DNA of 64,000 nucleotides from Candidatus Bathyarchaeota archaeon (GTDB lineage: Archaea > Thermoproteota > Bathyarchaeia > Bathyarchaeales > Bathycorpusculaceae). Made by a program: the position numbers and the translations under genes. Positions 33,021 to 46,629 of the stretch are shown here, piece after piece (the stretch's first letter is position 1; each line of letters starts with the position of its first letter). The notes beneath the pieces were generated by a model that was not told the origin of the DNA, did no database searches, and saw nothing but the letters and a program-made list of their open reading frames with translations. Location: contig JAOZID010000010.1 in NCBI GenBank assembly GCA_026014465.1, positions 838,303 to 902,302 on the forward strand. The letters run 5' to 3'.

Positions 33021-33135
33021 CTATTGACTAAAGAAACTTGCGTGTTATTTGTCGTCAAATGTTAACGTTAAAATTGTTAAGAAAAGGCTTAGGCATCAGG
33101 ATATTTCAAAGTTAATCTTTAGCGGATATAAATTG

Positions 33136-33153
33136 AACTCCCTCGGAATGAGG
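33136..33153 (+). promoter_or_regulatory. palindromic box copy f (AACTCCCTCGGAATGAGG)
   Basis: gatataaat 2 nt upstream; ~110 nt upstream of the ABC ATPase start 33263. Confidence 0.65.
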
Positions 33154-33262
33154 TACAAACAAAAATACGAAATAATACCAGTCTATGCAGTGGTTGCCCG
33201 CTTGAAGAGGGGCATGCCAAAAATCTAAATGCGGTAAACTCTAATGATTAGAGGGGTTAAAC

Positions 33263-34057
33263 TTGCTCAAAACTAACGCTATTGTGTCTGGTTCTTTAGC
33301 ATTAAAATTGACGGGTGTTTCTAAACGCTACAGTGATGTGACAGCAGTAAATAGTCTTACCTTAGAGGTAAGAAAAGGTGAAGTTATCGGTCTTTTAGGC
33401 CCCAACGGTTCAGGCAAATCAACGCTCATTAAAATGATGCTGGGCTTAGTCAAGCCTGACAGCGGAACCATAAACGTTTTAGACCTTCCCCTGCAGCAGA
33501 ATTCTATCGGAGTAAAAAAGAGAGTGGGCTACGTGCCTGAAGATGCTGGCGCTTACGAGTTTTTGACTGGGCTTGAGTTCCTTGACTTTGCTGGCGACGT
33601 TTTTGGGATGGATTTGGGGGAGAAGAAAAAACGGATCGAAGAGTTCCTCAAGGCGCTGAGTTTAGAGGGCAGGGAAGGTGACATGATAAGTGGTTATTCG
33701 GAGGGTATGAAAAAGAAAATTCTAATTATATCAGCGCTCATGCACAAACCCGAACTGCTGCTCTTAGATGAACCGCTAAATACTCTTGATCCAAAGTCAG
33801 CTAAAATCGTCAAGGACCTGCTGCACCAATTAGCCCAGCAGAATGTAACCACCGTTATATCGACTCATGTGTTGGAGATTGCCCAAGCTATATGCAGCCG
33901 CATAGCCATAATGTATGAAGGAAAGTTAATTGCAGTTGGGACGATGGATGAGTTGAGGCAGCAGGCAAAAATGCCCAATTCAGCCTTAGAAGACATTTTC
34001 CTCAAGCTTACTGGAACAGATGATGTCCAACCCATTGTTGAGGCACTCTCGAAATGA
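33263..34057 (+). CDS. ABC transporter ATP-binding protein
   Basis: Walker A GPNGSGKST, signature YSEGMKKKILII, Walker B LLLLDEPLNTLD. Confidence 0.9.
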   Translation: MLKTNAIVSGSLALKLTGVSKRYSDVTAVNSLTLEVRKGEVIGLLGPNGSGKSTLIKMMLGLVKPDSGTINVLDLPLQQNSIGVKKRVGYVPEDAGAYEFLTGLEFLDFAGDVFGMDLGEKKKRIEEFLKALSLEGREGDMISGYSEGMKKKILIISALMHKPELLLLDEPLNTLDPKSAKIVKDLLHQLAQQNVTTVISTHVLEIAQAICSRIAIMYEGKLIAVGTMDELRQQAKMPNSALEDIFLKLTGTDDVQPIVEALSK

Positions 34058-35748
34058 ACTGGAAAACCGTCCTACTGCTTATAAGTGTAAATCGGAAAGC
34101 TAAACGAACAATTCAAGAATCCAAGCTTAGAAGATACCAAGAGAACAAACTATTCACCTACGGCATGTATTTGCTGGCTTGTTTGATAGGCATAATAGCG
34201 GGAGGATTAATCGGCAACTTTTACTCAGCATCCAGCCAGACAATGCAAAGCGCTGTTTTAGATGGCGCAAAATACTTCTTAGTAACTATCCCGACCATTG
34301 TTCTGCTCTACGGAGTAGTCTTTACTCAGATAAATCAGGTACAACGCATGGGCGCTAAAGTTTCAGTTCAGCCCATGTACTGGTTTCCCATCTCTTGGAA
34401 AGAACACACCTTAGCATCCATAATATCGAGCCTGCTTGGCTTACCCTTAGCAATCACAATTTTAATCAGTTCAGCCGTTTTGACGGTGTCTGTTTTTATG
34501 GGGATAATCCCCATTGCAATCCTCACCGTATTGGCATTATCGGCAAGCCTGCTCTTAGCCAGCGCAACAACCGAGGTCTTCAAAACCCTACAGCTCAGGC
34601 TACTTGGCGCAGTAACAAAGGGTGCTGGAAGAAGCGCCATCTGGCTAAGACTCGCCTTCTCCATAGGCGCAATGATTGTATTTTATGCGGTTTACTATTC
34701 GATCATTAATCAAGTAACGCCTACGCTTCTCTTTGAAGCCGTAGCTGGCGGGCAAAGGATGCTTTGGTTTATTCCTTATGTGTGGCCGGGCATGGCGCTC
34801 TCTGCATTCGCCAGCAACCTCTGGATGGAAGCGTTTCTCTTCTCTTTGGCAAGTCTTGGTTTCATAGCCGCTATCTTCTATGTGGCAACATACGTTAACA
34901 CTCGATTTGGACTGTATCAGTTACCCACAATTAGGCTATCAAGCGGCGTCTATATGCCCAAGCAGAGCTTGTTTGCAAAGCTAGGTTTCTCCACTGTTGA
35001 GGCAGCACTTATGAAAAAAGAGTTTAAAACGGTTACTAGACGCCATGAGTTAAGTTTTATCTTTATTTTTCCCATAAGTATGCTTATGCTTGTTTTTTTT
35101 AATGTTCTGAGGGCGCCTCAAACAAGTCCTGTACCAATGGGCGGTTACTCATTTTTGTTTGTTCTAATAACGTTAATTCCAGGGCTTATGATGCTTCCTC
35201 TTTTGGGAACATTGCTGACAACTTTGGAGGGCAATAGTATTTGGTATTTGTTTTCGTCGCCTATTTCTGCCAAGTCGATTGCTAAAGCAAAAATTTTCTT
35301 CCTATCATTCTTTGCCCTATCGATTACTTTGATTTGTTCAGTAATTGGCGGTATTGTGTTTAGACCACCGGCGCTGGTTATAGCCGTGACTTTGCTTGAA
35401 GCGGTGTTCTTGATTTTTTCTCTATCTGCTATTTCAGTTGCCATCGGAATCAAAGCGGCTGAACCAAGAGGTATCTTTGGCGTTAGCAAGATGGTTAAGC
35501 CAAAGTGGGCTCTACTTGGATTTATCCTCTGTGTTGCCATCGGTGCAGCTATTATTGCCCCGATTATTCCCTATGCCTTGAGCATTTTTGCTGTTTCATT
35601 TCTCCCAACCATACTGCAGCTTCCAGAATACTATGTTTATCTTGCATTACTGTTAAGCGGCGTAATCGCAGTTTCTATGACGTACATCTTTCGGGGGGTT
35701 GCAGTGGATAATGCTGAACAGTTGCTTGCTGACCCCGACGCTATTTAA
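34054..35748 (+). CDS. large polytopic ABC transporter permease-like membrane protein
   Basis: 564 aa, >10 hydrophobic segments, 4-nt overlap with the upstream ATPase gene. Confidence 0.7.
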   Translation: MNWKTVLLLISVNRKAKRTIQESKLRRYQENKLFTYGMYLLACLIGIIAGGLIGNFYSASSQTMQSAVLDGAKYFLVTIPTIVLLYGVVFTQINQVQRMGAKVSVQPMYWFPISWKEHTLASIISSLLGLPLAITILISSAVLTVSVFMGIIPIAILTVLALSASLLLASATTEVFKTLQLRLLGAVTKGAGRSAIWLRLAFSIGAMIVFYAVYYSIINQVTPTLLFEAVAGGQRMLWFIPYVWPGMALSAFASNLWMEAFLFSLASLGFIAAIFYVATYVNTRFGLYQLPTIRLSSGVYMPKQSLFAKLGFSTVEAALMKKEFKTVTRRHELSFIFIFPISMLMLVFFNVLRAPQTSPVPMGGYSFLFVLITLIPGLMMLPLLGTLLTTLEGNSIWYLFSSPISAKSIAKAKIFFLSFFALSITLICSVIGGIVFRPPALVIAVTLLEAVFLIFSLSAISVAIGIKAAEPRGIFGVSKMVKPKWALLGFILCVAIGAAIIAPIIPYALSIFAVSFLPTILQLPEYYVYLALLLSGVIAVSMTYIFRGVAVDNAEQLLADPDAI

Positions 35749-35808
35749 GAGCATATCATGCGAGGCTTATCAGCGCAACTCGATAAGGTTCTGATTCCTT
35801 TTTAGTCG

Positions 35809-35826
35809 CACTCCCTCAGAGGGAGC
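35809..35826 (+). promoter_or_regulatory. palindromic box copy g (CACTCCCTCAGAGGGAGC)
   Basis: CTCCCTC-aga-GAGGGAG palindrome between the permease stop and the 35859 ORF. Confidence 0.55.
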
Positions 35827-35858
35827 AACTCTTTAATTTCTAAGTAGATAACAAGCCT

Positions 35859-36137
35859 GTGGGTGTTATGATGTTGTGGACAGGTAAGTTATCTTTGGTT
35901 ATTCTATGCTTAATTTTGCCTGTCTTGATAATACCACTCATCAGCATTCTCTTATTTCCCGAAGCATCTTTAACTACATCCATTCTCGTCGGCGTCGTTT
36001 TTTCTCTGTTTGTCGCCATTGGACTGCGACTTATACAAGGGGCAAAAGCTATTGGAGCACGCTTCATTATCGCCGTAATAATTATCGCTGTTTTGTTTGG
36101 TTTATTAGCGGGAGTTCTCCTCAAACTCTTAAGTTGA
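35859..36137 (+). CDS. small membrane protein
   Basis: 92 aa, three hydrophobic helices. Confidence 0.5.
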   Translation: MGVMMLWTGKLSLVILCLILPVLIIPLISILLFPEASLTTSILVGVVFSLFVAIGLRLIQGAKAIGARFIIAVIIIAVLFGLLAGVLLKLLS

Positions 36138-36243
36138 GTTACTCGATAGGGGCAGAACGCTTGCCTAAAGAGGCTGTGCTTCTGGAGTTTAAGCATGTAA
36201 ACGGTTCTGGCTGACTAACTATTGTCTCAGGAGCGATTAGTTT

Positions 36244-36435
36244 AGAAGAAGAAAAACGGCTAAATTCCTACGGAAACTGTTGTTCTTCTTTCCAAATACC
36301 GATCATCTATTAAATTGATGGAAGAAGAAGACAAAGCCGCACACACATACTTGTCTTCTTCTTTCAATTAATTCCAGCACTTAACAAAAGAACAACAACA
36401 AGCCATTTTTCCAACTGTTGTTGTTCTTCTGTTTT
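36244..36435 (+). repeat. three tandem imperfect hairpins with GAA/GAC-rich 5' arms
   Basis: H1 is 36244-36259/36277-36291, H2 is 36320-36336/36350-36365, H3 is 36381-36402/36415-36435. Each has a 14-20 bp stem, loops of 12-17 nt, and H2 and H3 share a single-A bulge next to the loop. Confidence 0.7.
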
Positions 36436-36549
36436 CATTTCTTTTAGGGCGTAGTGGCGATTGTAACGGTTGGGACTTACTACTTCTTAATTGGAGCCAT
36501 TTCATATTATTAAAATATTTAAATAGGTTTTTAATTATATGAAATTACC

Positions 36550-37500
36550 ATGAGACATTTGGACCCAGAATACGCTTTCAGTCATGCAGAGTTGCAGTTG
36601 CTTAGAGAAATCGCTAATAGAAAGCAGTCTCTGCCGCAAATCAGGCGGTCACTTTCAATTAAGCCATCTCTTCTTTCTCACAATTTAAACAAGCTGAAGC
36701 GTAAAGGGCTAGTCCAAACAACCGAGCAAGGAAATAGGAAATACGCATGCTTCAATGAGGCAAAACATGCTTCTCTGCTTAGAGATTTACTGGTTGCTTA
36801 TGATTATGTGGATTGGGAAAACGTCCTGTCTGGAAAAGCAATCGAAATCCTCTTCCAAGCACTCACTGACAAAGAGAGCAAATTGTCGGGTTTTTCAGGT
36901 GCTACGCTTTGGCGCTATCTCAAAGAACTAAAAGCAAGAGGCATAATCACCCAAACCCAAAAAAGCTACCAAATTAACCCGCAATTCCCAGTCCTTATAG
37001 AATTCCTAAAGGAATACCAACAGTATTTTGCCAACAAAATTTCCAAAACCCTCTCAGAAAACGCGGTAATTCTATGGCAGCACGGCATGGACTTTCTAGT
37101 CAGAGCGCCCAAAACTGCAAAGCTGCCCTCAGACAATTTCTACAAAACTGTGACGTCCATTTTTGTCCAGTATGGTCTTCCGCTTTTCTCTGACTTTGAC
37201 ATTTACTTTTACTCAACAAGCAAGAAGGCAATCAAGCCTGAAGATGCTATACTGCACACGCTCCTTGTGGAGCCGGGCAATGTGCGATACATAACTTACG
37301 CTCTTTTGCTGTTTAAAAAAACCGAAAAGCAAATTGACAAAACATACCTGCTGCAGGAAGCGGAAAGGTTGGGGCTTAAGACGCAGGTAATGGGTATGTT
37401 GCAATTTTTAGAAACGCATGAGCCGCAAGAGGGGCAACAGTTGCCAATGTGGGGCGAATTTGTTGAAAAAGCAAGCGGCTATGGAGTGTCTGTTGATTGA
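36550..37500 (+). CDS. double winged-helix protein with C-terminal domain (AbiEi-antitoxin-like architecture)
   Basis: Two wHTH units (SLSIKPSLLSHNLNKLKRKGLV and GATLWRYLKELKARGII). Stop overlaps TTG of the next gene (TTGA). Confidence 0.6.
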   Translation: MRHLDPEYAFSHAELQLLREIANRKQSLPQIRRSLSIKPSLLSHNLNKLKRKGLVQTTEQGNRKYACFNEAKHASLLRDLLVAYDYVDWENVLSGKAIEILFQALTDKESKLSGFSGATLWRYLKELKARGIITQTQKSYQINPQFPVLIEFLKEYQQYFANKISKTLSENAVILWQHGMDFLVRAPKTAKLPSDNFYKTVTSIFVQYGLPLFSDFDIYFYSTSKKAIKPEDAILHTLLVEPGNVRYITYALLLFKKTEKQIDKTYLLQEAERLGLKTQVMGMLQFLETHEPQEGQQLPMWGEFVEKASGYGVSVD

Positions 37501-38332
37501 CTCAAAGGCGCTCTTTTGATAAGAACTATCTCAAACAAGAATTTGATAAGCTAAACAAGACAATAGCACAGTCTCTTGAACTTTTTCTGATGGTGGCGGC
37601 GCCATGGCGTTCTTTGGATTAAAAGCCGCGACAAAAGACATAGACATAATCCTCACCGGCAAAGACGCGCTAAACAGCCTGCAAACAGCCCTCAAAGTCA
37701 CAGGTTACCATGAACCAAACCCTGTTCAAATCACCAGAGCGTACAATAAAATGCAAACCAGCGCCATACTGGAAAACCAAGACGGCTTCAGATGGGACCT
37801 CTTCCTAAACAAAGTCTGCAACGCACTAACACTGTCCAGCAACATGAAAAGCAGGGCACCCCCACTCTACAAAGGCAGCCGCCTAAAAGTCTTTTTAGCC
37901 TCAAAAGAAGACCTCTTTCTCTTCAAAGGAATCACCGCGCGCGAAGCCGACCTGGATGACCTGCGAATTCTCGCTCAATCTGGACTTAGCTGGGAAATCG
38001 TGAGCCAAGAATGCAAAAGCCAATCTCAAGTTTCGGGCGTTTGCTGGGAAGATGCGCTTTACCAAAACCTGCTGGATCTTAAAGTAAAGTACAGCATCCA
38101 AGCTCCAATTGAAAAAGCCCTGAGGCAGACAGCTGAACAGAAAATAATTGAAAAAACCTTGCTAAGGCAAATCCAGAAAGGAAATCGCACCATCAAAAGC
38201 ATAGCAGCAGAAATCAAGGAACCACCAAACTTCATCCAAGACGAGCTTAAGCGGTTAGCAGATAAAGGGCTAATTACAATCGATAAAACAAGCAAGCCAC
38301 ACAGGTTCTTTTTAGAAAGGAAAACAGCTTGA
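37497..38332 (+). pseudogene. minimal nucleotidyltransferase-fold protein with C-terminal wHTH; reading frame broken at T5 run 37582-37586
   Basis: Frame 0 from TTG 37497 encodes LTQRRSFDKNYLKQEFDKLNKTIAQSLELFL. The track ORF frame continues SDGGGAMAFFGLKAATKDIDIIL, which is the G-G-x11-D-x-D NTase signature. One extra T would join them. Confidence 0.55.
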
Positions 38333-38449
38333 AGAACACCGTTTACACAATAAAAACGAAACAAGCTGAGCTACAGGAAACCATAACAAGATTGTCGGTC
38401 TGCCGGTCATAACAAGGCTTTAATACTGATTTCAAGAAAACAGTTTACA

Positions 38450-38680
38450 ATGAAGCTGACTGAAAGAGAACTGAAAATTCTGCAACTTAAACAGAAAGGC
38501 TTAAGCGACTATAGGATAGCCCGCAGAATGCACACGGACCCGCCAAACGTGACTCGTTCACGAAAAAACGCCCATAAAAAAATACTTGAAGCGGTAGCAT
38601 CCTTGGAGTGGGCGACAAGAACAGGATTAGAAATTCCGTTAACTAATAGAACAGATAGTTCTTACAGCTATTTCTTATAA
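38450..38680 (+). CDS. small HTH protein (Tfx/LuxR-sigma70-region-4-like), paralog A
   Basis: LTERELKILQLKQKGLSDYRIARRMHTDPPNVTRSRKNAHKK; ~55% identical by eye to 48145..48357. Confidence 0.65.
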   Translation: MKLTERELKILQLKQKGLSDYRIARRMHTDPPNVTRSRKNAHKKILEAVASLEWATRTGLEIPLTNRTDSSYSYFL

Positions 38681-39270
38681 AAAACAGTTAAAAAAGGAAC
38701 GGCTACTGTGCTTAACTCGGCATTGTGTAGTTAGCAAGTCCGAGAATGCTTCCAGCGCCTCTGGAGTGTAAATGGTAGGTTGCAGCTCATGTTTGTGTGC
38801 ATAAGAACCTAGAAATACAAAACGAAGCAACATGCTCCCGAAAACGCTTACAATCCTTACAGCCAACGCCATCCTGAGACATACCTAAATCGCCAACAGA
38901 ACAATTCTACAACTACGCATTAATGCCTTGAGAGCCTAAACACGATATTATCGCAAACAAGACATTTGCCTGTATCCCAAATATACGGGGCTATGCGATA
39001 GAGCTGATGTCTAGATGACATCGAGGCACCATGTAGCTGAAGAGGCGCGTACAAGCAGAGATTCAGAACCATTTATTTTTTGCTATTTTACTCTTTGATG
39101 TATCGTAATTGAATCCTGATGTTGAATACAAAAAAATAGTTTATTGTTTGCCTCACAAAAGAGACTTTTGATCAGCGTACTCACTGGTTTTCCTGTTCCG
39201 TATGGCGTACCAAATGTGAGGCAAAAGTTCGGGTTAACAGCGATTTTCTTTTGTGGACAACAGCTACAGG

Positions 39271-40431
39271 TTATATTGACGGAAATCTTCGCCTCAAATA
39301 GCCCTGTACAAAGTCGTGGTCATTTGCTAATTCAGTGCTTTTCACAATTTGACCCTCAAGCCTATCTAATGCAATCTTAAACGTCTGTTCGACACCATAT
39401 CCTTCGCCTGAACTGAAAAACGCACCCTTCTTTGTTCTAAATTGTAGTCGGCAGTGAATTAACTGATCACCCTTGAAGTTAGTGCCATGCGTCTTCATGT
39501 AAACAAATAATGTGCCCGCCTCTAAGGTTCCTCCGTATCGGTGGGTGAAAGAGTCGAAGTCATCCATAACTGCGCCTCGCTGGATTTCGTCAATTTCCAC
39601 GCCTTTTACTGAAAACTCCACGGTAAGCCTTTCCACTGGTTTTTCCATCTGCGCGAGCGGCTCAAGAAAGTCACGTTTAGTTATGATGCCAACAGGTCTT
39701 CCCTTGCTAACGATCACCAAAGAGGAAATGTTGAATTTGTGCATCTGCTCCTCAGCATCTCGCAACTTGGATTCAGGCAACACAGTGACTACAGGCTGAA
39801 CCATAATGCCCGTCGCAGGAATACTTAGAGCAGAAACTTTCTGGCCTACTCTTTCGCCAAATCTTTGCACATGTCTAGGCTGAAAGATATTGTCAATAAT
39901 GTCGGATAGGCTCACCATTCCCACGAGTTTTCCCTCTTTGACTATGGGAACATGCGAGATTCCCTCGCTTCTTAAAAGGCTTAACACTGCCCCTAATGAT
40001 TCGTCTTCTTCGATGACAAACGGCTTCTTTGACATTATTTCTTCAACATGCGTGTTGCCCCATTGATCCATTATAGCGCTATGAATAACATCCTCGTCGG
40101 TTACAAAACCTACGAGCTTATTTTCACTGTAGACTGGAAGTTGCCTGATTTCGCTCTGGATCATTAACTTAGCGACCTTGCTAAGAGTATCCTGTAGAGT
40201 AACGGCAGGCGCTGACTGCGTCAAAGTTTTAACTTTGGTTCCAGACGCATCTAAACTGGATCGTTTTATTGATTTTTGGGAAATAACGCCTTTGTAACTG
40301 CCTTTATCATCGAAGACTGCTAAAACAGGCGGCATCCCTTCTTTGAAACGTGATAAACAAGAAGAAAGCGTATCATTTTCCTGTACTTGTATGAAACCCT
40401 TTGAAAAAACATCTTCCACAATTTTAACCAT
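39271..40431 (-). CDS. four-CBS-domain protein with C-terminal HPF/RaiA-like domain
   Basis: Four CBS repeats in residues 1-280. Residues ~285-386 (LTVEFSVKGVEIDEIQRGAVMDDFDSF...LIHCRLQFRTKKGAFFSSGEGYGVEQTFKIALDRLEGQIVK) follow the beta-alpha-beta-beta-beta-alpha pattern and the ...AID.A.DKLERQL...-like ending of ribosome hibernation factors. Confidence 0.7.
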   Translation of the reverse strand: MVKIVEDVFSKGFIQVQENDTLSSCLSRFKEGMPPVLAVFDDKGSYKGVISQKSIKRSSLDASGTKVKTLTQSAPAVTLQDTLSKVAKLMIQSEIRQLPVYSENKLVGFVTDEDVIHSAIMDQWGNTHVEEIMSKKPFVIEEDESLGAVLSLLRSEGISHVPIVKEGKLVGMVSLSDIIDNIFQPRHVQRFGERVGQKVSALSIPATGIMVQPVVTVLPESKLRDAEEQMHKFNISSLVIVSKGRPVGIITKRDFLEPLAQMEKPVERLTVEFSVKGVEIDEIQRGAVMDDFDSFTHRYGGTLEAGTLFVYMKTHGTNFKGDQLIHCRLQFRTKKGAFFSSGEGYGVEQTFKIALDRLEGQIVKSTELANDHDFVQGYLRRRFPSI

Positions 40432-40535
40432 AAAAACACTTCAGCACTGTTATTTATTATCCTTGAGTAATTTAAGCTTAAGAGACTTAGGGCACACTCT
40501 TACATTAGTTTCTTAACAAAATTAAAGGGAGAAAA

Positions 40536-42176
40536 TTATTCTCCGCCCATGCCACCAGGCATTCCGCCGGGGCCGCCTCTGGGGGATTTAGCTGTTATAA
40601 TGTCGTCTACGCGTAGGATCATAGCTGCTGATTCCGCTGCTGATTTGATGGCTTGCTCTTTGACGACTATGGGTTCGATGACGCCGTTATCGATGCTGTT
40701 TTGGAGTTTGCCAGTGAATATGTTGATGCCCATGTATTTGCCGTCTTCTTTGTCATGTACTTGACGTAGCTCTATGAGTGTGTCAATTGATTCTAAGCCG
40801 CCGTTCTCTGCAAGCGTGCGTGGAATGACTTCGACTGCGTCAGCAAAGGCTTCCACGGCGAGTTGTTGTCTTCCGCCAATTTTGGTTGAGTAATTGCGTA
40901 GTTCTTTGGCGATTTCGATTTCGATGGCTCCGCCGCCAGCGACTATTTTGTTATTTTCCGTTACGTCTGAAATTACGGATAACGCGTCAGTTATGACTCT
41001 TTCAGCTTCATCAACCATTCGCTCAAGCCCTGCACGTATTAGAATGGCTACTGAGTGAGGGTCTTTGCATTTTTCGACGAAAATCATTTTGTCATCGCCA
41101 ATCTTGCGTTCTTCCACTAAACCCGCAAAACCCAAATCTGCCGCCTTTAAATCATTCAAATTAGAGCTCACTCGCCCTCCTGTAGCTCTCGCGAGTTTTT
41201 CCATGTCGGATTCTTTTACTCGACGTGCTGCCATGATGCCTTCTTTAGAGAGAAAGTGTTGTACCATGTCGTCGATACCTTTTTGGCAGAACACAATGTT
41301 TGCGCCTGAAGCTTTAATCTTGGTCACCATCTCTTTTAGTGTGCTATCCTCTTGGTCTAAGAAAGCTTTCATCTGGTTTGGTTCATGGATGCGTATTTCC
41401 GCAGTTATTTCGGTTTTTTCAATTTCTAACGCAATGTCTAAAAGGGCAATTTTTGCGTTCTCTATCTTTTTGGGCATTCCCGAATTAATGACTTCTTTGT
41501 CCACGATTATGCCTCTGACGAGTTGTGTCTCGATGAGGCTTTTTCCTGTCTTTTTCACCAGTTGTATGTTATCTATGTCGGCTATCGTCTGGTCTGCGGC
41601 CTTCTGGGTTACTTGTTTTACCGCTTCTAGGGCTATTTCTGCAAAGTGCTCTTTAGCACCACCCACAGCTTTGCTGCCCATAGCGGTCAAAGCGACTTTC
41701 AGCATCATTTTTTGATTCTCTACGTCAATGGGCACCGCGTTTTTTGCAATTATCTCGATTGCTTTCTGTGCTGCTTTACGGTATCCTGCGACAAGTATCA
41801 TTGGGTGGACGTTTTGGTCTAGGAGTTGTTCGGCTTTTTTGAGCAGTTCACTGGCTAACACTACGACGGTTGTTGTTCCGTCGCCGACCATGTCGTCTTG
41901 GGTTTTGGCGATTTCAATCATCATTTTTGCCGCTGGGTGCTCCACGTCCATTTCCTTGAGAATTGTGGCGCCGTCGTTGGTTATGGTGATGTCGCCTAAG
42001 CTGTCGATAAGCATTTTATCCATGCCCCGTGGGCCCAGAGTAGTTTTAAGCACTTCACCGATGACTTGGGCGGCCATAATGTTGTTTCGTTGGGCTTCTT
42101 TGCCCCTACTTCTGGTGGTTCCTTCCTTTAGGATGAGGACCGGTTGACCACTTTGGGTTTGTGTTAAATATGCCAT
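40536..42176 (-). CDS. ths: thermosome subunit (group II chaperonin)
   Basis: 546 aa, VGDGTTTVVVLA ATP-binding motif, ITNDGATIL, C-terminal GGPGGMPGGMGGE tail. Confidence 0.95.
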   Translation of the reverse strand: MAYLTQTQSGQPVLILKEGTTRSRGKEAQRNNIMAAQVIGEVLKTTLGPRGMDKMLIDSLGDITITNDGATILKEMDVEHPAAKMMIEIAKTQDDMVGDGTTTVVVLASELLKKAEQLLDQNVHPMILVAGYRKAAQKAIEIIAKNAVPIDVENQKMMLKVALTAMGSKAVGGAKEHFAEIALEAVKQVTQKAADQTIADIDNIQLVKKTGKSLIETQLVRGIIVDKEVINSGMPKKIENAKIALLDIALEIEKTEITAEIRIHEPNQMKAFLDQEDSTLKEMVTKIKASGANIVFCQKGIDDMVQHFLSKEGIMAARRVKESDMEKLARATGGRVSSNLNDLKAADLGFAGLVEERKIGDDKMIFVEKCKDPHSVAILIRAGLERMVDEAERVITDALSVISDVTENNKIVAGGGAIEIEIAKELRNYSTKIGGRQQLAVEAFADAVEVIPRTLAENGGLESIDTLIELRQVHDKEDGKYMGINIFTGKLQNSIDNGVIEPIVVKEQAIKSAAESAAMILRVDDIITAKSPRGGPGGMPGGMGGE

Positions 42177-42611
42177 ATTATTCTATCCTCAATATTATGT
42201 TCAAATAATATTCTTTAGCATCGTCAGCGTTTTAGGAATTCACGGGGCTCTCCCATATCTATGAGTCATGCCGAAGAAGACGGGTTTGACCTGCAAGAGA
42301 CTGAAGGCTTGATACTTTCAACTGTTAAAGAACCGCTGACTTTGTAAGTTATATATTGTCATACAGGGATTTAAACACGTTTAGAGAACAAGCGAGTACT
42401 AAGGTATTCACCATTATTGCTCTATTGTTAATACTTAACTATTTGTGCCTCAATTCCATATGTATTACTCGAAAAGAACTTGCGAAAAGACTGAAGCGTT
42501 TCAGTAACATTAAGTAATAGTGTGCTGTTTAGCGTAAGCATAGGCAATTAGGAAATAAGGGCGCCGCCATAGAAGAAGCTTAATGTTTTATGGCAGCACC
42601 AATTTTCAGAG

Positions 42612-42983
42612 TTGAAAGGGATTAACTTGACAAAAACTGATGATATTTTATTGGAGTTGAATAGAACAGTCGCTAGGTATCTGCTGGGAGTTCGCCCGTT
42701 TCAATACAAGAAAAAGACATATCATTTAATCGACAATTACGTTGCAGTACCTTACATGAAGTGTGATGTGTGTGGGACTTATCCGACATACGAGGTTTCC
42801 GTTATTGAAAGCAAAGAGGGCACGACGCTACGCGTGGGAAACGATTGTATTGATAATTTGACAGGACAAAACGTTTCAGAATGGTTTAAAAGTTTCAGAA
42901 AAAAACGCGAAAGCATCATGGCAAACAGAAAATACACTGACCAGCTACCACGAGGACAGGAACAAATAGCGGTTGCTACCTGA
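42612..42983 (+). CDS. hypothetical protein with CxxC...C motif
   Basis: 123-aa ORF (TTG start in track); CDVCGTYPTYE...GNDCIDNL. No family recognised. Confidence 0.4.
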   Translation: MKGINLTKTDDILLELNRTVARYLLGVRPFQYKKKTYHLIDNYVAVPYMKCDVCGTYPTYEVSVIESKEGTTLRVGNDCIDNLTGQNVSEWFKSFRKKRESIMANRKYTDQLPRGQEQIAVAT

Positions 42984-43089
42984 GCATAAGCGCCACGCGC
43001 CACAACTTAAGAGTTGGGCACAATAGACGTTTATTTAAAGCGCTGTTAAATCTTGGGCAGTCAATTTTTGTATACTAACCATTCAAAAA

Positions 43090-44145
43090 TTAAATGTTTA
43101 CTCGAAAGGCCCAATTCATGTAAGCGCTAATATCTCTCGAAAGCACCAGTGAAGGCTCAACGTAACAGTGAAGGCTACACTTTTGGCAGTGACCTATTTT
43201 TTTCCAATCAAAACCTGAAACGGCATCTTTAACGCCTTTTTTAAAGACCGAGACACTGCTCGCGTAGTCGTTGTGGACATAGCAAGGCAAAACCAAGTTT
43301 CCATGGGGGTCAATATTTATCATTGCCCAAGGCTTGCATTGCCAGTTTTTCTCTTTAGCCAGAACTTTTAGATAACCAATTGAGTTAACAATGGGATAAC
43401 CTTGCTGCTTCATTTCAATAAGCCTACGCGCCATTTTCGGTACCTTATCAATAGCAGCGGAGGATGCATTAGCATTGCAGTATTCATGTGCGACGGCTAC
43501 GGAGATTTTTGTGCCCAACGTTCGCGCTAACTCCACCAAACTTTCCGTTTCACCGATGTTCTCCGCCATCACAGTGGTGTTGATGGTTACTGAAACTTTT
43601 TCTTTCGCCGCCTCTATGCCTTGCACTGCTTTTCTAAAGCTTCCACTGACCCCTCGGATAGCATCATGAGTTTTCTCCAACCCATCCAAGGAAACATAGA
43701 CGACACCATTAATGTACTTGGCTACCTCGCCTATTTTGGCTTCAAGCAGCGTACCATTGGTTATCAAACTTGTATGCAAAGGCAGAGACCGGGAAAAAGC
43801 AAGAATATCCACCAAATCACGCCTAAGCAACGGTTCCCCACCTTCAAATGCTACTCCAACGGCGCCTGAATTGTATATCTGTTTCAGAATGGCTTTCGTT
43901 TGCGGTAAGCTTGGATCGGGGCTGGGTCTTTTCCAGAAAGGGCACATTTTGCAGCGAAGGTTGCAATTGTAAGTAAGCTTGTGCCCACAAAAGAAAGGAA
44001 CCTTCGCACCAAGCATGTTTGAGATTAAGACACGGTAAACTCGAATTCCTAGCCAGAGGGGTTCTACATATTGGCGAATGGTTTTTTCTCCTACAGGATA
44101 ATTAGAAATCCACCTACAGCTCCCACGGTAAATGAAAGGGTGCAT
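43090..44145 (-). CDS. radical SAM protein, HpnH-like (C-terminal Cys-rich DUF3463/SPASM-like domain)
   Basis: CNLRCKMC is the CxxxCxxC cluster. C-terminus is CKPWAMINIDPHGNLVLPCY...DWKKIGHCQKCSLHCYVEPS, which parallels the C..PW...G...PCY...W...C..C..HC..E pattern I recall from HpnH-type enzymes. Confidence 0.75.
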   Translation of the reverse strand: MHPFIYRGSCRWISNYPVGEKTIRQYVEPLWLGIRVYRVLISNMLGAKVPFFCGHKLTYNCNLRCKMCPFWKRPSPDPSLPQTKAILKQIYNSGAVGVAFEGGEPLLRRDLVDILAFSRSLPLHTSLITNGTLLEAKIGEVAKYINGVVYVSLDGLEKTHDAIRGVSGSFRKAVQGIEAAKEKVSVTINTTVMAENIGETESLVELARTLGTKISVAVAHEYCNANASSAAIDKVPKMARRLIEMKQQGYPIVNSIGYLKVLAKEKNWQCKPWAMINIDPHGNLVLPCYVHNDYASSVSVFKKGVKDAVSGFDWKKIGHCQKCSLHCYVEPSLVLSRDISAYMNWAFRVNI

Positions 44146-44453
44146 TAATTCTTTAGTTCTCTGTCTTCACTGTAGTTTCGGTCCTCATGAACTTCTTCTT
44201 CTGCCGCATCTTGTCTTTCTTGTTCACGCACGCTTTCAGCTTCTCCTTTGGCTTTTGCTCTATCTTCGGCTTGACCTTTTGGCGGATAAACAGTATCCAA
44301 CCAAACTTCAAACTGCACCTTATAATCAGCACTGGAAAAAGCCCAATCACATAATCCACTGATGACCTTGCCAATATCAATGTCGTGTTCGTCTGAAAGA
44401 CTCTTCAAAAATTCTTCCCACTTTGCAGGTAAAGTAATTGAGAAACTATCCAT
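44145..44453 (-). CDS. ribbon-helix-helix-like small protein with long acidic C-terminal tail
   Basis: From Met-20 of the track ORF: MDSFSITLPAKWEEFLKSLSDEHDIDIGKVISGLCDWA (beta strand plus two helices), then ...EDRAKAKGEAESVREQERQDAAEEEVHEDRNYSEDRELKN. Its TAA shares one base with the ATG of the radical SAM gene (TAATG). Confidence 0.55.
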   Translation of the reverse strand: MDSFSITLPAKWEEFLKSLSDEHDIDIGKVISGLCDWAFSSADYKVQFEVWLDTVYPPKGQAEDRAKAKGEAESVREQERQDAAEEEVHEDRNYSEDRELKN

Positions 44454-44611
44454 AAAATGAAATCTCCACACTCTTATTAGTGCTAACGTGTATTTAAGTA
44501 TCAAACGCACTTGAAGCGTTCAATTGCCGCCAAGCAGTAGACGAATAAAAGTGACCATGGATTAGGTCCGAGAAGGCATTTTGCCCTTGATGCCATTTAC
44601 TAATCCTCTAC

Positions 44612-44974
44612 TTACTTGAAGAATTTAGTTGCTCTTACAGAAGTCTGCGACCCGGAGACTGAGGGATTAATTTCATAAAACATGTTCTTGAAGAAATTAG
44701 TGGCTTCATCATTACAGACGTTGAAATCGTTAGTTCTCATGGAAAGTGCACAATGGTTCTGAGCGTTTTTCTCGATAAAATTAAGCAGTTCTCTACCATG
44801 GCCTTTACGTTTTTCCAAGCAAGCAGTATGTATATCTTCTAAATTACTGTAGAGTATGGTCCTAGCCCAAGACACCGTTTTTCCATCAACAAAAAGCGTA
44901 TACAATATTTCATCGTCTACTTCGCTTTCCTGCTGAGTTTCAACAATTTCCACTTTGGCAATTCTGTCCATCAT
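44612..44974 (-). CDS. small GNAT-like acetyltransferase
   Basis: 120 aa; ACLEKRKGHGRELLNFIEKNA resembles the R/Q-x-x-G-x-G/A acetyl-CoA loop. Confidence 0.5.
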   Translation of the reverse strand: MMDRIAKVEIVETQQESEVDDEILYTLFVDGKTVSWARTILYSNLEDIHTACLEKRKGHGRELLNFIEKNAQNHCALSMRTNDFNVCNDEATNFFKNMFYEINPSVSGSQTSVRATKFFK

Positions 44975-45093
44975 TTGAGCCTTCTCAGAATATAGTTCAC
45001 CTTTTTTTGTTAACCTGAAAATCAGGGTGTCGAGACCAAAAAGGTAAGCTTACCAATAAAATAAGTGGTGTCATATTTATTCGCATTCCACTC

Positions 45094-45621
45094 TCATAAT
45101 GCATTGCACTGTGTAACCCGGATTCGCAAATCTTTTTTCCTTTCAAGCAAATCAGTAACCTCGTCAAATTCACAGGTGTAATCCTTATGCTCCTTAACCA
45201 ATCTTTTTAGTCTACATTGGCTAAAGTAACCCTCGTATAATCCAAACAACAGTATCCCCAAGAAGCCTAAGATAAGAAAATCAGAGAACGCTTCCGCTCC
45301 ACTCGTATAAACTGCGAGTAGTATAGGGAGCAAGATTCCAATAGCACTTAGGTAGGATGAAATTGCGCCTATAAGTGCTCCCATAACATCTATTTTGTTA
45401 TCGTTGATGCTCTTAGCAAGGCTGGCTTTTCGTTCCCAAAGCGTTGCGGTATCATTTGATTCCACTGCACTGAACAAATTGTCAAAAGCTTCGACCGACA
45501 TATTGCCTGTTCTGTTGAGAAACGCATGGTTCATTTTCTGGTGATACGACTCTCGACTTTCTATATACTTCTCTTTAAGAGCGGTATTATCAATGTAGGG
45601 CGTTTTTCGAACAACAGCCAA
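45094..45621 (-). CDS. hypothetical membrane protein (two TM helices)
   Basis: 175-aa ORF. Soluble N-terminal half, then ALIGAISSYLSAIGILLPILLAVY and FLILGFLGILLFGLY helices. Confidence 0.5.
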   Translation of the reverse strand: MAVVRKTPYIDNTALKEKYIESRESYHQKMNHAFLNRTGNMSVEAFDNLFSAVESNDTATLWERKASLAKSINDNKIDVMGALIGAISSYLSAIGILLPILLAVYTSGAEAFSDFLILGFLGILLFGLYEGYFSQCRLKRLVKEHKDYTCEFDEVTDLLERKKDLRIRVTQCNAL

Positions 45622-45753
45622 TGCATACTTTGTGTTTTCAAGAAAGCTCTTTCCTGATACTTGGTCATTGAGCGTCAGGTTGAAGCGTGTTTGTTTTTGA
45701 CTTTTGATTATTTGCTTAGAGTTTTCGATTCTTTTTCACATAACTAAATGGAT

Positions 45754-45906
45754 CTACCTTTGTTCCTTTTGCAGTCGCAGTCTTGTTGCAATCTCTTGTG
45801 AGATTCTTTCGAATCCTACTGCTAACTCTGTGCTGTCAACTTCATCTATGGGATAGAATTTGCCGTCTTGGTCTATGAATACAAGCTCTAATTTTTTATT
45901 AGCCAT
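45754..45906 (-). CDS. possible 50-aa small protein
   Basis: Hand-translated MANKKLELVFIDQDGKFYPIDEVDSTELAVGFERISQEIATRLRLQKEQR; below track cutoff, no family recognised. Confidence 0.3.
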   Translation of the reverse strand: MANKKLELVFIDQDGKFYPIDEVDSTELAVGFERISQEIATRLRLQKEQR

Positions 45907-46075
45907 GTCTTTCAACTCTTGGTGTAAATTGCATACTGCACAGGTTCTAAACCGGGGGGACCACGACTACTTGGTTCCTTACGCAATCTTACCATGCGTT
46001 GAGGCTAGTCGGCTTCCCCTAATACCTTCCTTCGTTAGGAAGGGCTTAAAATACAGTTACTGTGAGTTGCTGCTA

Positions 46076-46219
46076 CTATTCTTTTTTGACTATCCACGTC
46101 TTTATCGCGTCTTCGACAGCGCGGGATAGGTCGCCTTTTTTTCCGCCAAATTTTTGAACTGTCTTTATTCTGAGTTGCTTTTCGAGTTCATCAGGTAAAT
46201 CTACGCTTATTCGACCCAT
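46076..46219 (-). CDS. 47-aa ribbon-helix-helix (CopG-like) protein
   Basis: Hand-translated MGRISVDLPDELEKQLRIKTVQKFGGKKGDLSRAVEDAIKTWIVKKE, the classic RHH pattern (beta strand ISVDLP, two helices); below track cutoff. Confidence 0.6.
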   Translation of the reverse strand: MGRISVDLPDELEKQLRIKTVQKFGGKKGDLSRAVEDAIKTWIVKKE

Positions 46220-46629
46220 AGTTCATCTTCGGCTTGTTTTTTGTGCACTGTGAGCCCGCATCCCTTATTTTTCTGATCTATTTGAGTTCACTTATGCGCA
46301 TATACTGTTATGTGCACAGTAGCTTATATACATATGCCAACAAGTGTTAAAGATTAAAAAAACTCCACACCCACTAGTATTCGTTTATCGTGGAATCCAC
46401 AACTACTCTACAACCATGACAATTTAACACTTTGTCACTCGTGCAGCTTTTCGATTACGAAGAAGGGCATTTGACAATAATGAAGAGTGATAAATTGAAA
46501 AAAGGCAACATAGAAATGCTTGTCTGCTATGCTGTTTATTGAGTGGAATTTTGTGAATCATCGCAGATATTTTGATTCTCCTAATTGTGGAAGCTGCATA
46601 TACAAAGGAAGCAGTTACGGTTGGGGACA

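What the first reader, a model, noticed from the sequence alone, without database searches (positions are those of the whole stretch)
39271..40431. Four CBS domains fused to an HPF/RaiA-like ribosome-hibernation domain
Residues 1-280 form two CBS pairs, which are adenine-nucleotide sensing modules. Residues ~285-386 have the length, predicted strand/helix order and the ..ALDRLEGQIVK ending characteristic of HPF/YfiA/RaiA (S30AE) proteins. Such a fusion would couple energy-charge sensing directly to ribosome silencing. HPF-type factors are not a standard annotated archaeal component. The gene lies on a mobile island next to a thermosome gene, so the pair looks like a transferable stress or dormancy pair.
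Basis: inference. Interest (0 to 1): 0.62.

Follow-up and report, generated by a model that had tools for sequence, protein, structure and literature searches.

The report
Archaeal HibA ribosome-hibernation factor on island
The gene really does encode four CBS domains fused to an HPF/RaiA-fold domain, but this is the archaeal ribosome-hibernation factor HibA/AHA, published in 2025-2026, so only its place on an integrase-bounded genomic island is new.

Summary
Window 39271-40431 (-) is an intact 386-aa gene with four CBS domains. [quoted passage not shown] The top 35 Foldseek PDB hits are all HPF/RaiA/pY hibernation factors. The whole protein aligns collinearly (31% identity, E 6.6e-58) with Pyrococcus abyssi HibA, which was solved on the ribosome.

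This architecture is already published as HibA (Nat Commun 2026) and AHA (bioRxiv 2026), and is reported in about 47% of archaeal genomes. The core finding is therefore correct but not new.

The "mobile island" claim holds up. It rests on a tRNA-Leu, a tyrosine integrase, a 36/39-nt att repeat at 24109 and 48737, and GC of 0.42 against 0.49 in the flanks. Near-identical integrase and hibA segments also occur in other metagenomes without the host flanks.

The "thermosome-hibA pair" claim is weak. The adjacency is rare among relatives, and hibA has its own conserved promoter-like upstream sequence. A second HibA, 82% identical, appears to lie elsewhere on the same chromosome.

Residual novelty is modest: this may be the first archaeal hibernation factor seen as cargo of an integrative element.

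The parts
39271..40431 (-). hibA/AHA-family gene, 386 aa plus stop: CBS tetrad fused to an HPF/RaiA-like domain
   Evidence: ORF. Full-length collinear match to P. abyssi HibA chain 9sr9_H, E 6.6e-58, 31% identity over 382 columns. dN/dS 0.07-0.11.
39646..40431 (-). CBS module, residues 1-262: four CBS domains forming two Bateman pairs
   Evidence: PF00571, 4 stretches, E 1.8e-47. The G-h-h-S/T-x-x-D motif Asp is kept in CBS2 (D114), CBS3 (D177) and CBS4 (D254). D177 and D254 are invariant in 49 homologs.
39823..39882 (-). Extended loop in CBS3, residues 184-203 (QPRHVQRFGERVGQKVSALS), equivalent to the PTC loop / loop 3 of HibA/AHA
   Evidence: Aligns without gaps to P. abyssi 188-207, KPRFKAQYGELAGEKIPPFS. 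F183, Q184, G192, G196 and K198 are invariant in Bathyarchaeia homologs. The loop's role is taken from PMC13324472 section 7 and PMC12934967 section 8.
39340..39627 (-). [quoted passage not shown]
   Evidence: AF2 domain model pLDDT 92.1. Foldseek PDB top 35 hits are all HPF/RaiA/pY. The family profile reaches bacterial HPF chains at E 0.004-0.013. 26 of 38 family members hit PF02482.
39274..39339 (-). C-terminal helical tail, residues 365-386
   Evidence: Helices H106-109 and H111-121 of the domain model. [quoted passage not shown] 2 legend).
40437..40476 (-). Conserved hibA upstream region: TATA-like box CTTAAATTA (40468-40476, about -45 to -37) and GAAGTG (40437-40442, about -11 to -6)
   Evidence: Conserved in most of 18 related loci whatever the upstream gene. 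A T-rich run follows the thermosome stop codon. Promoter function is inferred, not shown.
40536..42176 (-). Thermosome (group II chaperonin) subunit gene, upstream neighbour on the same strand, with a 104-nt spacer
   Evidence: PF00118, E 3.7e-178. NCBIfam thermosome beta, 792 bits against a cutoff of 400. A 90%-identical homolog lies 5-7 kb from hibA in L006 and L011 only.
42612..44510 (.). Conserved hibA neighbours: hyp123 (42612-42983, +), PTO1314-family radical SAM (43090-44145, -), hyp121 (44145-44510, -)
   Evidence: Syntenic with hibA in many of the 19 Bathyarchaeia loci. TIGR03961, 306.4 bits against a cutoff of 306.05.
24047..24134 (+). tRNA-Leu (anticodon TAG), the integration target
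   Evidence: ARAGORN. Rfam tRNA, 48.9 bits.
24109..24147 (+). attL: 3' end of the tRNA-Leu plus 13 nt downstream
   Evidence: Direct repeat family D2, reference copy.
24192..25484 (-). Tyrosine integrase, 430 aa, with an N-terminal Zn-ribbon
   Evidence: PF00589, E 3.1e-22. phrog_1 integrase, E 3.2e-29. XerA-like, E 2.8e-25, below cutoff.
48737..48775 (+). attR: partial copy of the tRNA-Leu 3' end (36 of 39 nt)
   Evidence: No tRNA is called here by ARAGORN or Rfam. The upstream sequence is unrelated to a tRNA body.
24109..48775 (.). Putative integrated element of ~24.7 kb carrying hibA and the thermosome gene as cargo
   Evidence: GC 0.423 against 0.49 and 0.495 in the flanks. Metagenome contigs of X1 and X2 cover 24.1-25.8 kb and 38.0-48.5 kb at 93-99% identity but not the host flanks. 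Host flanks are found in 0 listable runs, against at least 20 for hibA-thermosome.

Best explanation
The gene encodes a member of the HibA/AHA family of archaeal ribosome hibernation factors, in a Bathyarchaeia genome.

The mechanism below was shown for the P. abyssi and H. volcanii homologs and is inferred here by homology. The C-terminal HPF/RaiA-fold domain (residues 269-364) lodges in the mRNA/tRNA channel of the small subunit at the A/P sites. Its helical tail points toward the mRNA exit. The N-terminal CBS tetrad docks on the large subunit. The long loop of CBS3 (residues 184-203) can reach into the peptidyl-transferase centre. One polypeptide thus clamps an idle 70S, blocks mRNA and tRNA binding, and protects the ribosome during stationary phase or stress.

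Adenine nucleotides, with AMP preferred, probably bind at the CBS3/CBS4 interface. How that binding controls engagement or release is unknown even for the characterised homologs.

In this genome the gene, with its own promoter-like sequence, lies inside a ~24.7 kb tRNA-Leu-integrated island bounded by att repeats. It is most likely a horizontally acquired second copy, alongside an 82%-identical paralog elsewhere on the chromosome.
For: - Four CBS domains.
- Full-length collinear homology to ribosome-bound HibA 9sr9_H (E 6.6e-58; 31% identity, 55% positives, 9 gap positions) and to 9l96_a (E 2.3e-35).
- Foldseek PDB ranks 1-35 are all HPF/RaiA/pY.
- A profile of 38 diverse C-terminal domains hits HibA at 3.6e-29, then bacterial HPF chains 4v8h_AX, 9t0z_9, 7m4z_v, 6h4n_x and 2rql_A at E 0.004-0.013.
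- 26 of 38 members hit PF02482.
- The domain alone finds 79 clusters, mostly ~370-400 aa proteins matched at the C-terminus or stand-alone ~100-140 aa proteins.
- The PTC-loop segment is conserved.
- The CBS3 and CBS4 ribose-binding Asp residues are invariant.
- dN/dS is 0.07-0.11.
- Function of homologs: PMC13324472 (cryo-EM, in vitro translation inhibition, T. barophilus deletion, ITC giving AMP Kd 12 uM, ADP 65 uM and ATP 113 uM) and PMC12934967 (H. volcanii cryo-EM with two AMP, deletion phenotype).
- Island.
- Paralog: P0031 and the window's protein are each recorded on one contig of 1,679,805 bp, and their nearest relatives differ.
Against: - The window protein's own C-terminal domain does not reach any Pfam or NCBIfam model. 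The link to bacterial HPF at sequence level is transitive and individually weak (E ~0.004-0.01).
- No ribosome binding, nucleotide binding or expression data exist for this protein or for any Bathyarchaeia homolog.
- The full-length AF2 model is poor (pLDDT 59.6; residues 177-267 below 50). The relative arrangement of the domains and the loop conformation are therefore not modelled.
- For the island, no excised or empty-site junction was demonstrated. Low GC continues to 53.7 kb, beyond attR. The hibA sub-cluster is syntenic with ordinary-looking chromosomal regions of related genomes.
- The location of the paralog could not be retrieved.
Confidence: 0.88

Rival explanations
1. The protein is a HibA-type factor, but the island copy serves the mobile element. 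For example, it might silence host translation for element maintenance, or act as an abortive-infection-like defence, rather than serving as a housekeeping dormancy factor.
For: - The gene lies inside an att-bounded island.
- Defence-like genes sit just beyond attR: a DruE/SngC/BrxH-like helicase at 4.9e-45 and an IetA-like AAA ATPase at 7.8e-18.
- There is a weak sub-threshold hit to the NCBIfam 'CBS domain-containing anti-phage protein' NF053863 (45.6 bits against a cutoff of 260).
- Jumbo phages encode S30AE-fold proteins.
Against: - PADLOC finds nothing for the protein.
- It is 79-91% identical to homologs in ordinary chromosomal contexts and shares their promoter-like upstream sequence.
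- Purifying selection is the same in both domains.
- The island has no viral or plasmid hallmark gene apart from the integrase.
- The NF053863 hit covers only generic CBS repeats.
Confidence: 0.06
2. The gene is the host's ordinary, vertically inherited hibA. On this view the 'island' is not a mobile unit, and the tRNA fragment at 48.7 kb and the integrase are relics of an unrelated older event in a naturally low-GC region.
For: - The hibA / hyp121 / radical SAM / hyp123 (and thermosome) block is syntenic with chromosomal regions of other Bathyarchaeia that have no integrase or tRNA within 10 kb.
- Low GC extends to 53.7 kb, past attR.
- No attP or attB junction was proven.
Against: - The 36/39-nt repeat of the tRNA 3' end brackets exactly the segment that begins with an intact integrase.
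- Both flanks are 0.49 GC against 0.42 inside.
- In X1 and X2 the integrase and the 38.0-48.5 kb segment are present at 93-99% identity, while the host flanks are missing.
- No listable run holds either host flank, against at least 20 runs for hibA-thermosome.
- A second HibA on a contig of the same length has different nearest relatives.
Confidence: 0.2
3. It is a generic CBS-domain regulator, either a transcription factor as JGI annotates it (HhpR/CM-3-like) or an IMPDH-related 'dehydrogenase', with an unrelated C-terminal extension.
For: - Source annotations read 'predicted transcriptional regulator' and 'CBS domain-containing protein', and the PDB molecule name is 'Dehydrogenase'.
- Sub-threshold NCBIfam hits to HhpR (45.8 bits against 520) and IMPDH (59.3 bits against 481.5) cover the CBS repeats only.
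Against: - There is no DNA-binding or catalytic domain.
- The C-terminal domain has the HPF fold.
- The chain named 'Dehydrogenase' is the protein built into P. abyssi 70S maps as HibA (PMC13324472).
- HhpR belongs to a separate CBS-module clade, CM-3.
Confidence: 0.02

Closest known systems
HibA (Pyrococcus abyssi PAB0961, PDB 9SR9-9SRF; Thermococcus barophilus TERMP_00697), Madru et al., Nat Commun 2026, PMC13324472
   Same: - Same architecture and length (386 against 392 aa): CBS tetrad, short linker, HPF/RaiA-like domain and helical tail.
- Collinear alignment at 31% identity with only 9 gap positions.
- The extended CBS3 'PTC loop' segment is conserved.
- Two insertions relative to bacterial HPF.
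- The CBS3 and CBS4 Asp residues are retained at the site where AMP and ATP bind in HibA.
   Different: - It comes from Bathyarchaeia (Thermoproteota), from mesophilic anaerobic habitats, not from a hyperthermophilic euryarchaeon.
- CBS2 also keeps the canonical Asp (D114), which P. abyssi lacks.
- It is located on an integrase/att-bounded island, probably as a second copy. The paper's main text does not use the term 'mobile genetic element' (0 occurrences).
- No experimental data exist for this protein.
[quoted passage not shown]
   Same: Same family under another name: the HPF domain sits on the 30S A/P sites and the 4xCBS module sits on the 50S with loop 3 in the PTC. The paper notes that multiple AHA paralogs per genome are common, which fits the second copy inferred here.
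   Different: I did not compare the H. volcanii sequence directly. The 406-aa PDB chain 9l96_a (E 2.3e-35) has the same architecture, but I could not link it to a paper. The two AMP molecules seen in AHA are untested here.
Bacterial HPF / RaiA (YfiA, protein Y) / plastid pY, Pfam PF02482 Ribosomal_S30AE
   Same: Same fold and the same helix alpha2 motif (A-[IL]-D-x-L-x-x-Q-[IL]-x-K). Foldseek gives E 3e-6 to 1e-2 and target-normalised TM 0.6-0.86. It presumably binds the same 30S site, as shown for HibA and AHA.
   Different: - Sequence identity is only 9-20%.
- The window protein itself does not reach the Pfam model.
- It carries an N-terminal CBS tetrad rather than being stand-alone or having the long-HPF dimerisation domain.
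- Its beta2-beta3 hairpin and helix alpha1 are longer.
Dri, SriA-D and ARC-A/ARC-P (CBS-tetrad archaeal hibernation factors)
   Same: These are CBS tetrads that bind ribosomes and sense adenylates. The HibA CBS module is related to the CM-5/SriA-type modules that bind the large subunit.
   Different: They lack an HPF/RaiA domain. ARC uses 'occlusion elements' and acts as two separate proteins. Their distribution is largely mutually exclusive with HibA.
Plasmid-borne chimeric HPF isoforms in bacteria (e.g. the SigE-HPF fusion on pEc78), bioRxiv 10.1101/2025.11.04.686544
   Same: A hibernation factor carried by a mobile or integrative element and added to a genome that already has one.
   Different: Those are bacterial, plasmid-borne and have different fusion partners. 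Here the element is an archaeal tRNA-integrated island with a tyrosine integrase and otherwise cellular cargo.

Membership tests
HibA/AHA archaeal hibernation factors | N-terminal module of four tandem CBS domains | tested here: met
   PF00571, 4 stretches, E 1.8e-47.
HibA/AHA archaeal hibernation factors | [quoted passage not shown] | tested here: met
   Domain model pLDDT 92.1 with that element order. Foldseek PDB ranks 1-35 are all HPF/RaiA/pY.
HibA/AHA archaeal hibernation factors | Full-length sequence homology to an experimentally characterised member | tested here: met
   9sr9_H, E 6.6e-58, query 5-380 against chain 6-386. 31% identity. C-terminal profile against 9sr9_H, E 3.6e-29.
HibA/AHA archaeal hibernation factors | Extended loop in the third CBS domain (PTC loop / loop 3) | tested here: met
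   Residues 184-203 align without gaps to the P. abyssi PTC-loop segment, keeping P-R, G-E, G and K. The segment is nearly invariant among 49 homologs. Its conformation is not modelled (pLDDT below 40).
HibA/AHA archaeal hibernation factors | Two archaeal-specific insertions in the HPF domain relative to bacterial HPF | tested here: met
   In the profile alignment to the E. coli HPF sequence (4v8h_AX), the bacterial sequence has two gaps, of 3 and 6 residues, in the alpha1-beta2 and beta2-beta3 regions. I did not check their positions against the paper's supplementary figure.
HibA/AHA archaeal hibernation factors | Adenine-nucleotide binding at the CBS3/CBS4 interface | not testable with these tools
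   Sequence hint only: the G-h-h-S/T-x-x-D Asp is present and invariant in CBS3 (D177) and CBS4 (D254). Homolog data: AMP Kd 12 uM and two AMP.
HibA/AHA archaeal hibernation factors | Binds 70S ribosomes, occludes the mRNA and tRNA sites, inhibits translation | not testable with these tools
   Shown only for the P. abyssi, T. barophilus and H. volcanii homologs.
Bacterial HPF/RaiA (Pfam PF02482 Ribosomal_S30AE) | Match to the PF02482 model | tested here: not met
   No hit for the window protein or for its C-terminal 125-129 aa, even at E up to 10. 26 of 38 relatives match (best E 1.3e-7), so the homology is transitive.
Bacterial HPF/RaiA (Pfam PF02482 Ribosomal_S30AE) | Stand-alone ~95-115 aa protein, or long HPF with a C-terminal dimerisation domain | tested here: not met
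   The domain is C-terminal to a 262-aa CBS tetrad and is followed only by a 22-aa helical tail.
tRNA-integrated genomic island with a tyrosine recombinase | Intact tyrosine integrase next to a tRNA gene | tested here: met
   tRNA-Leu at 24047-24134. Integrase at 24192-25484, PF00589 E 3.1e-22 covering 5-169 of 172 profile positions.
tRNA-integrated genomic island with a tyrosine recombinase | Direct repeat of the tRNA 3' end at the far boundary (attL/attR) | tested here: met
   24109-24147 against 48737-48775, 36 of 39 nt. There is no full tRNA at the second site.
tRNA-integrated genomic island with a tyrosine recombinase | Base composition differs from the flanks | tested here: met
   GC 0.423 inside against 0.49 and 0.495 outside. 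However, 48.8-53.7 kb is also low (0.409).
tRNA-integrated genomic island with a tyrosine recombinase | Presence/absence polymorphism, or an excised circular form | tested here: inconclusive
   Island segments occur without the host flanks in X1 and X2. An identical tRNA-Leu with other flanks occurs in X1. One contig in each of X1 and X2 joins a non-tRNA sequence resembling the island's right end to the att core plus the integrase side. The contigs are short and cannot be read out, so no junction is proven.
Dri / Sri / ARC CBS-tetrad factors | CBS tetrad(s) without an HPF domain (two tetrads in Dri; occlusion element in ARC) | tested here: not met
   There is a single tetrad plus an HPF-fold domain. 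The ARC paper never mentions HPF.

The most novel reading that the evidence does not exclude
An integrase-mobilised, tRNA-Leu-targeting island spreads a self-contained dormancy and proteostasis cargo among Bathyarchaeia in anoxic sediments, marshes and bioreactors. The cargo is hibA with its own promoter, a thermosome subunit gene, methylglyoxal synthase and small conserved partners. Recipients gain a second, divergent HibA paralog. This would be the first archaeal ribosome-hibernation factor shown to move on a mobile element. It would also offer a mechanism for the 'multiple AHA paralogs per genome' noted in surveys.
Probability: 0.45. Interest if true: 0.45.

Novelty: already known. Interest (0 to 1): 0.3.

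Why it matters
That is a good sign for the scan, but the biology is now published as HibA/AHA.

The practical value is in annotation. Pfam and NCBIfam still miss the HPF-like domain of this protein. Public records call its relatives 'CBS domain-containing protein', 'predicted transcriptional regulator' or 'Dehydrogenase'. Bathyarchaeia genomes are therefore under-annotated for ribosome hibernation, a trait that is very relevant to slow-growing sediment archaea.

The only part that goes beyond the literature is the context. The gene sits inside an att-bounded integrative island as a probable extra copy. If confirmed, that would show hibernation capacity being exchanged horizontally among archaea, as has been proposed for plasmid-borne HPF variants in bacteria.

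Tried and rejected
1. Direct Pfam and NCBIfam scans of the C-terminal 129 aa gave nothing. I needed a family profile and a structure model instead.
2. The full-length AF2 model built on 49 close homologs was poor (pLDDT 59.6), so I did not use it for fold search.
3. Retrieving the locus of the presumed same-genome paralog P0031 failed, because no gene with exactly that product is on record. Its context remains unknown.
4. The congruence test with host ribosomal protein uS3 was uninformative. uS3 is too conserved, the top 120 hits span a narrow score range, and the window's own protein was not listed. I note only that no long-contig fingerprints are shared with the HibA hit list.
5. The enolase comparison failed because the enolase in L005 is a distant paralog at 33%.
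6. A literature search for PDB 9L96 returned nothing.
7. I checked ARC (Methanolobus) as a possible synonym and rejected it. It has no HPF domain and belongs to another CBS family.
8. Searching public runs for either host flank returned no listable run, so I could not test for an empty site in the same species.
9. The loose-end motif CTTTCTAAAGCTAAGAAAAC, which links the helicase 3' end to a tRNA fragment in X1 and X2, is absent from the window. The tandem-island idea for 48.8-53.7 kb stays open.
10. PADLOC and PHROGs gave no defence or viral assignment for HibA or for most hypothetical island genes.
Full report
**1. The observation**

Window 39271..40431 on the minus strand is a single intact ORF of 386 codons starting with ATG. 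Most related loci share the start context ATGGTTAAA.
- Pfam finds four CBS domains (PF00571, four stretches, E 1.8e-47). It finds nothing for the last ~125 residues, and NCBIfam also finds nothing there.
- My boundaries are: CBS module 1-262, linker 263-268, core domain 269-364, helical tail 365-386.

**2.

I ran three independent lines.

(a) Sequence, direct.
- The whole protein, C-terminus included, aligns collinearly with PDB chain 9sr9_H (392 aa, E 6.6e-58, query 5-380 against chain 6-386).
- It also aligns with 9l96_a (406 aa, E 2.3e-35).
- BLASTP against the 9sr9_H sequence gives 31% identity, 55% positives and only 9 gap positions over 382 columns.

(b) Sequence, profile.
- The C-terminal 125 aa alone, searched against 1.84 billion representatives, finds 79 clusters. 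Most are ~370-400 aa proteins matched at their C-terminus, and some are stand-alone ~100-140 aa proteins.
- A profile of 38 diverse such domains (alignment A2, mean column identity 36%) hits 9sr9_H at 3.6e-29 and 9l96_a at 8.9e-19.
- The next five PDB hits are all bacterial HPF-type proteins: 4v8h_AX, 9t0z_9, 7m4z_v, 6h4n_x and 2rql_A, at E 0.004-0.013. RaiA and mycobacterial HPF follow further down.
- Scanned one by one, 26 of the 38 members match Pfam PF02482 Ribosomal_S30AE (best E 1.3e-7). The window's own copy does not.

(c) Structure.
- With alignment A2, AlphaFold2 models the domain at mean pLDDT 92.1 and pTM 0.83. The elements are E8-15, H21-42, E45-56, E62-72, E75-83 and H86-104, followed by two short helices.
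- In Foldseek against the PDB, ranks 1-35 are all hibernation factors: spinach and Chlamydomonas pY; Listeria, Vibrio, E. coli, S. aureus, B. subtilis, Mycobacterium and Thermus HPF; YfiA/RaiA. E goes down to 3.1e-6, probability is 1.00 and target-normalised TM reaches 0.86.

The refutation criterion is not met, and the fold assignment stands. The full-length model was poor (pLDDT 59.6) because that alignment was shallow, but it showed the same element order for residues 269-364.

**3. What it is**

The literature library shows that this exact architecture has been described.

HibA (Madru et al., bioRxiv October 2025; Nat Commun April 2026, PMC13324472):
- It was traced into cryo-EM maps of stressed Pyrococcus abyssi 70S ribosomes.
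- It consists of a CBS module (1-269) plus an HPF/RaiA-like domain (270-392).
- The C-terminal domain sits in the 30S mRNA/tRNA channel.
- The CBS module takes three positions on the 50S. In one, a long CBS3 loop (residues 190-207) inserts into the peptidyl-transferase centre.
- The family occurs in 47% of archaeal genomes.

AHA (Souza et al., bioRxiv February 2026, PMC12934967):
- This is the same family, in Haloferax volcanii.
- Two AMP molecules bind at the CBS3/CBS4 junction.

Other points:
- The entries 9SR9-9SRF are the P. abyssi HibA:ribosome structures. The paper cites 9SRE as its HibA-PTC reference structure.
- ARC and Sri are a different CBS-tetrad family without an HPF domain.

**4. 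Family features in the window protein**

- The segment 184-203 (QPRHVQRFGERVGQKVSALS) aligns without gaps to the P. abyssi PTC-loop segment. It is nearly invariant in 49 Bathyarchaeia homologs.
- Aligned to the archaeal profile, bacterial HPF shows two gaps, of 3 and 6 residues. This agrees with the two archaeal-specific insertions the paper reports.
- The Asp of the G-h-h-S/T-x-x-D motif is present in CBS2, CBS3 and CBS4. From general knowledge of CBS domains, this Asp binds the ribose. It is invariant in CBS3 (D177) and CBS4 (D254), which is where HibA and AHA bind adenylates.
- dN/dS against seven orthologs is 0.07-0.11 in both domains, so this is a working gene.
- Nearest relatives are 77-91% identical proteins from Bathyarchaeota/Bathyarchaeia MAGs.

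**5. Energy sensing**

The homolog's CBS module binds AMP (Kd 12 uM) more tightly than ADP (65 uM) or ATP (113 uM). However, neither AMP nor ATP clearly changed ribosome binding or the distribution of conformations.

**6. The mobile-island claim**

Evidence in favour:
- A tRNA-Leu (24047-24134) is followed by an intact 430-aa tyrosine integrase (24192-25484; PF00589 E 3.1e-22, phrog_1 E 3.2e-29).
- The last 26 nt of the tRNA plus 13 nt downstream (24109-24147) recur at 48737-48775, matching at 36 of 39 positions.
- No tRNA is called at the second site, and its upstream sequence is unrelated to a tRNA body.
- GC is 0.423 between the repeats and 0.49 and 0.495 in the flanks.
- The flanks hold the ribosomal-protein operon, a 5S rRNA, enolase, MoeA, agmatine deiminase and mevalonate-pathway genes, so they are host core chromosome.
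- Apart from the integrase, the cargo is cellular: PAP2, two ABC systems, MscS, HTH regulators, a DUF6036 nucleotidyltransferase, hibA, thermosome beta, a PTO1314-family radical SAM protein and methylglyoxal synthase.

Evidence from public metagenomes:
- The hibA-thermosome stretch is held near-identically by at least 20 runs from bioreactor, marsh, fermentation, digester and sediment samples.
- Neither host flank is found in any listable run.
- Laying the contigs of X1 and X2 on the window covers 24.1-25.8 kb (integrase, ~93-95% identity) and 38.0-48.5 kb (~97-99%).
- Those contigs do not cover 20-24 kb (except the 5S rRNA and tRNA) or 26-38 kb. Beyond 48.7 kb X1 has no cover, and X2 only thin, patchy cover over the helicase to about 51.3 kb.
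- The unit bounded by the att repeats therefore occurs in other backgrounds, in a variant that lacks the transporter module.
- X1 also holds a perfect copy of the tRNA-Leu with different flanks.
- X1 and X2 each hold a contig in which the att core plus integrase-side sequence is preceded by a non-tRNA sequence resembling the island's right end. That is what an attP or tandem junction would look like, but I could not verify it.

Caveats:
- Low GC continues to 53.7 kb. That stretch holds a DruE-like helicase and an IetA-like ATPase.
- No empty site was found.

I put the probability that this is a genuinely acquired integrative element carrying hibA at about 0.7.

**7. A second copy**

P0031 (394 aa as annotated, 82% identical) and the window's own protein are each recorded on a single contig of 1,679,805 bp.
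- P0031 is closest to the DYS_6 and DYS_1 MAG proteins (88% and 86%).
- The window's HibA is closest to L004 and L003 (91% and 90%).
- This fits one native copy and one acquired copy.
- I could not retrieve the P0031 locus, so this remains an inference.

**8. The thermosome 'pair'**

- The thermosome gene (40536-42176) is a full-scoring thermosome subunit. It lies 104 nt upstream of hibA on the same strand.
- Among 19 related loci a thermosome gene is never adjacent. It lies within 5-7 kb in only two, L006 and L011.
- Other close relatives sit next to glycogen phosphorylase and HSP20, KaiB/KaiC-like genes with TFIIB, or transporters.
- The ~46 nt upstream of hibA are conserved in nearly all loci whatever the upstream gene. 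They include a CTTAAATTA box at about -45 to -37 and GAAGTG at -11 to -6.
- A T-rich run follows the thermosome stop codon.
- I infer an independent hibA promoter. The two genes are co-resident cargo, not a conserved functional pair.
- The genes that do travel with hibA are two small unannotated ORFs, hyp123 and hyp121, and the radical SAM gene.

**9. Verdict**

The family is already known as HibA/AHA, so novelty is low. The island context is well supported but not proven to be mobile. The thermosome pairing is not supported. The residual interest is an archaeal hibernation factor carried as cargo of an integrative element. This parallels plasmid-borne HPF variants reported for bacteria (10.1101/2025.11.04.686544) and S30AE-fold proteins in jumbo phages.

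Noticed in passing
window 26416-26446, 26672-26702, 29972-30002, 31833-31863, 33122-33152, 35795-35825: Six copies of a ~31-nt repeat with the palindromic core CTCCCTCGGAGGGAG. All are intergenic within the transporter module of the island (PAP2, two ABC systems, DUF996, MscS, 12-TM protein). This looks like a shared operator or terminator. The whole 26-36 kb module is missing from the island variants in runs X1 and X2.
   Followed up: partly
window 48776-53700: A low-GC (0.409) stretch just outside attR carries a DruE/SngC/BrxH-like DEAD helicase with an MZB domain (48884-51301, PADLOC E 4.9e-45), an IetA-like AAA ATPase (52327-52932, E 7.8e-18) and an HTH protein (53023-53694). It may be a defence islet or the remnant of an older tandem island. 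In X1 and X2 the helicase 3' end appears to be followed by a tRNA-Leu fragment.
   Followed up: partly
window 48380-48510: A short segment next to attR is covered at 100-600x in runs X3 and X10, in many different contexts. All of those contexts continue past 48503 with ...CGCTTATTCATGCGAACAATCCG instead of the window's sequence. It looks like a truncated fragment of a multi-copy or highly conserved gene.
   Followed up: no
window 42612-42983 (+) and 44145-44510 (-): Two small unannotated ORFs, hyp123 (with CxxC...C motifs) and hyp121, are the most conserved neighbours of hibA across Bathyarchaeia loci. hyp123 is often directly downstream on the same strand, with a gap of about 25-30 nt in L005, L008, L015, L017 and L019. 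Neither has a Pfam or NCBIfam hit, and hyp123 hits only phrog_2319 weakly (2.5e-6). They are candidate HibA partners.
   Followed up: partly
window 19597-20739 (-): Ribosomal protein uS3 carries a C-terminal tail of about 180 residues rich in Pro, Glu, Ala and Lys, giving 380 aa against roughly 226-330 aa in the listed relatives. The window's own protein did not appear in the homolog search output.
   Followed up: no
window 43090-44145 (-): A radical SAM protein of the PTO1314 family (TIGR03961, 306.4 bits against a cutoff of 306.05), with DUF3463, is syntenic with hibA in at least 8 related loci. Its function is unknown.
   Followed up: no
window 36550-38680: An HVO_2833-type HTH regulator, a DUF6036 nucleotidyltransferase fused to an HTH domain, and a small GerE/LuxR-type HTH protein sit just upstream of the hibA block. 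They look like a toxin-antitoxin or regulatory module of the island.
   Followed up: no
PDB 9sr9_H; protein hits P0006, P0016 and others: There is an annotation gap. The solved HibA chain is deposited as 'Dehydrogenase', and JGI calls many homologs 'predicted transcriptional regulator'. Pfam and NCBIfam have no model that captures the HPF-like domain of the Bathyarchaeia proteins.
   Followed up: yes
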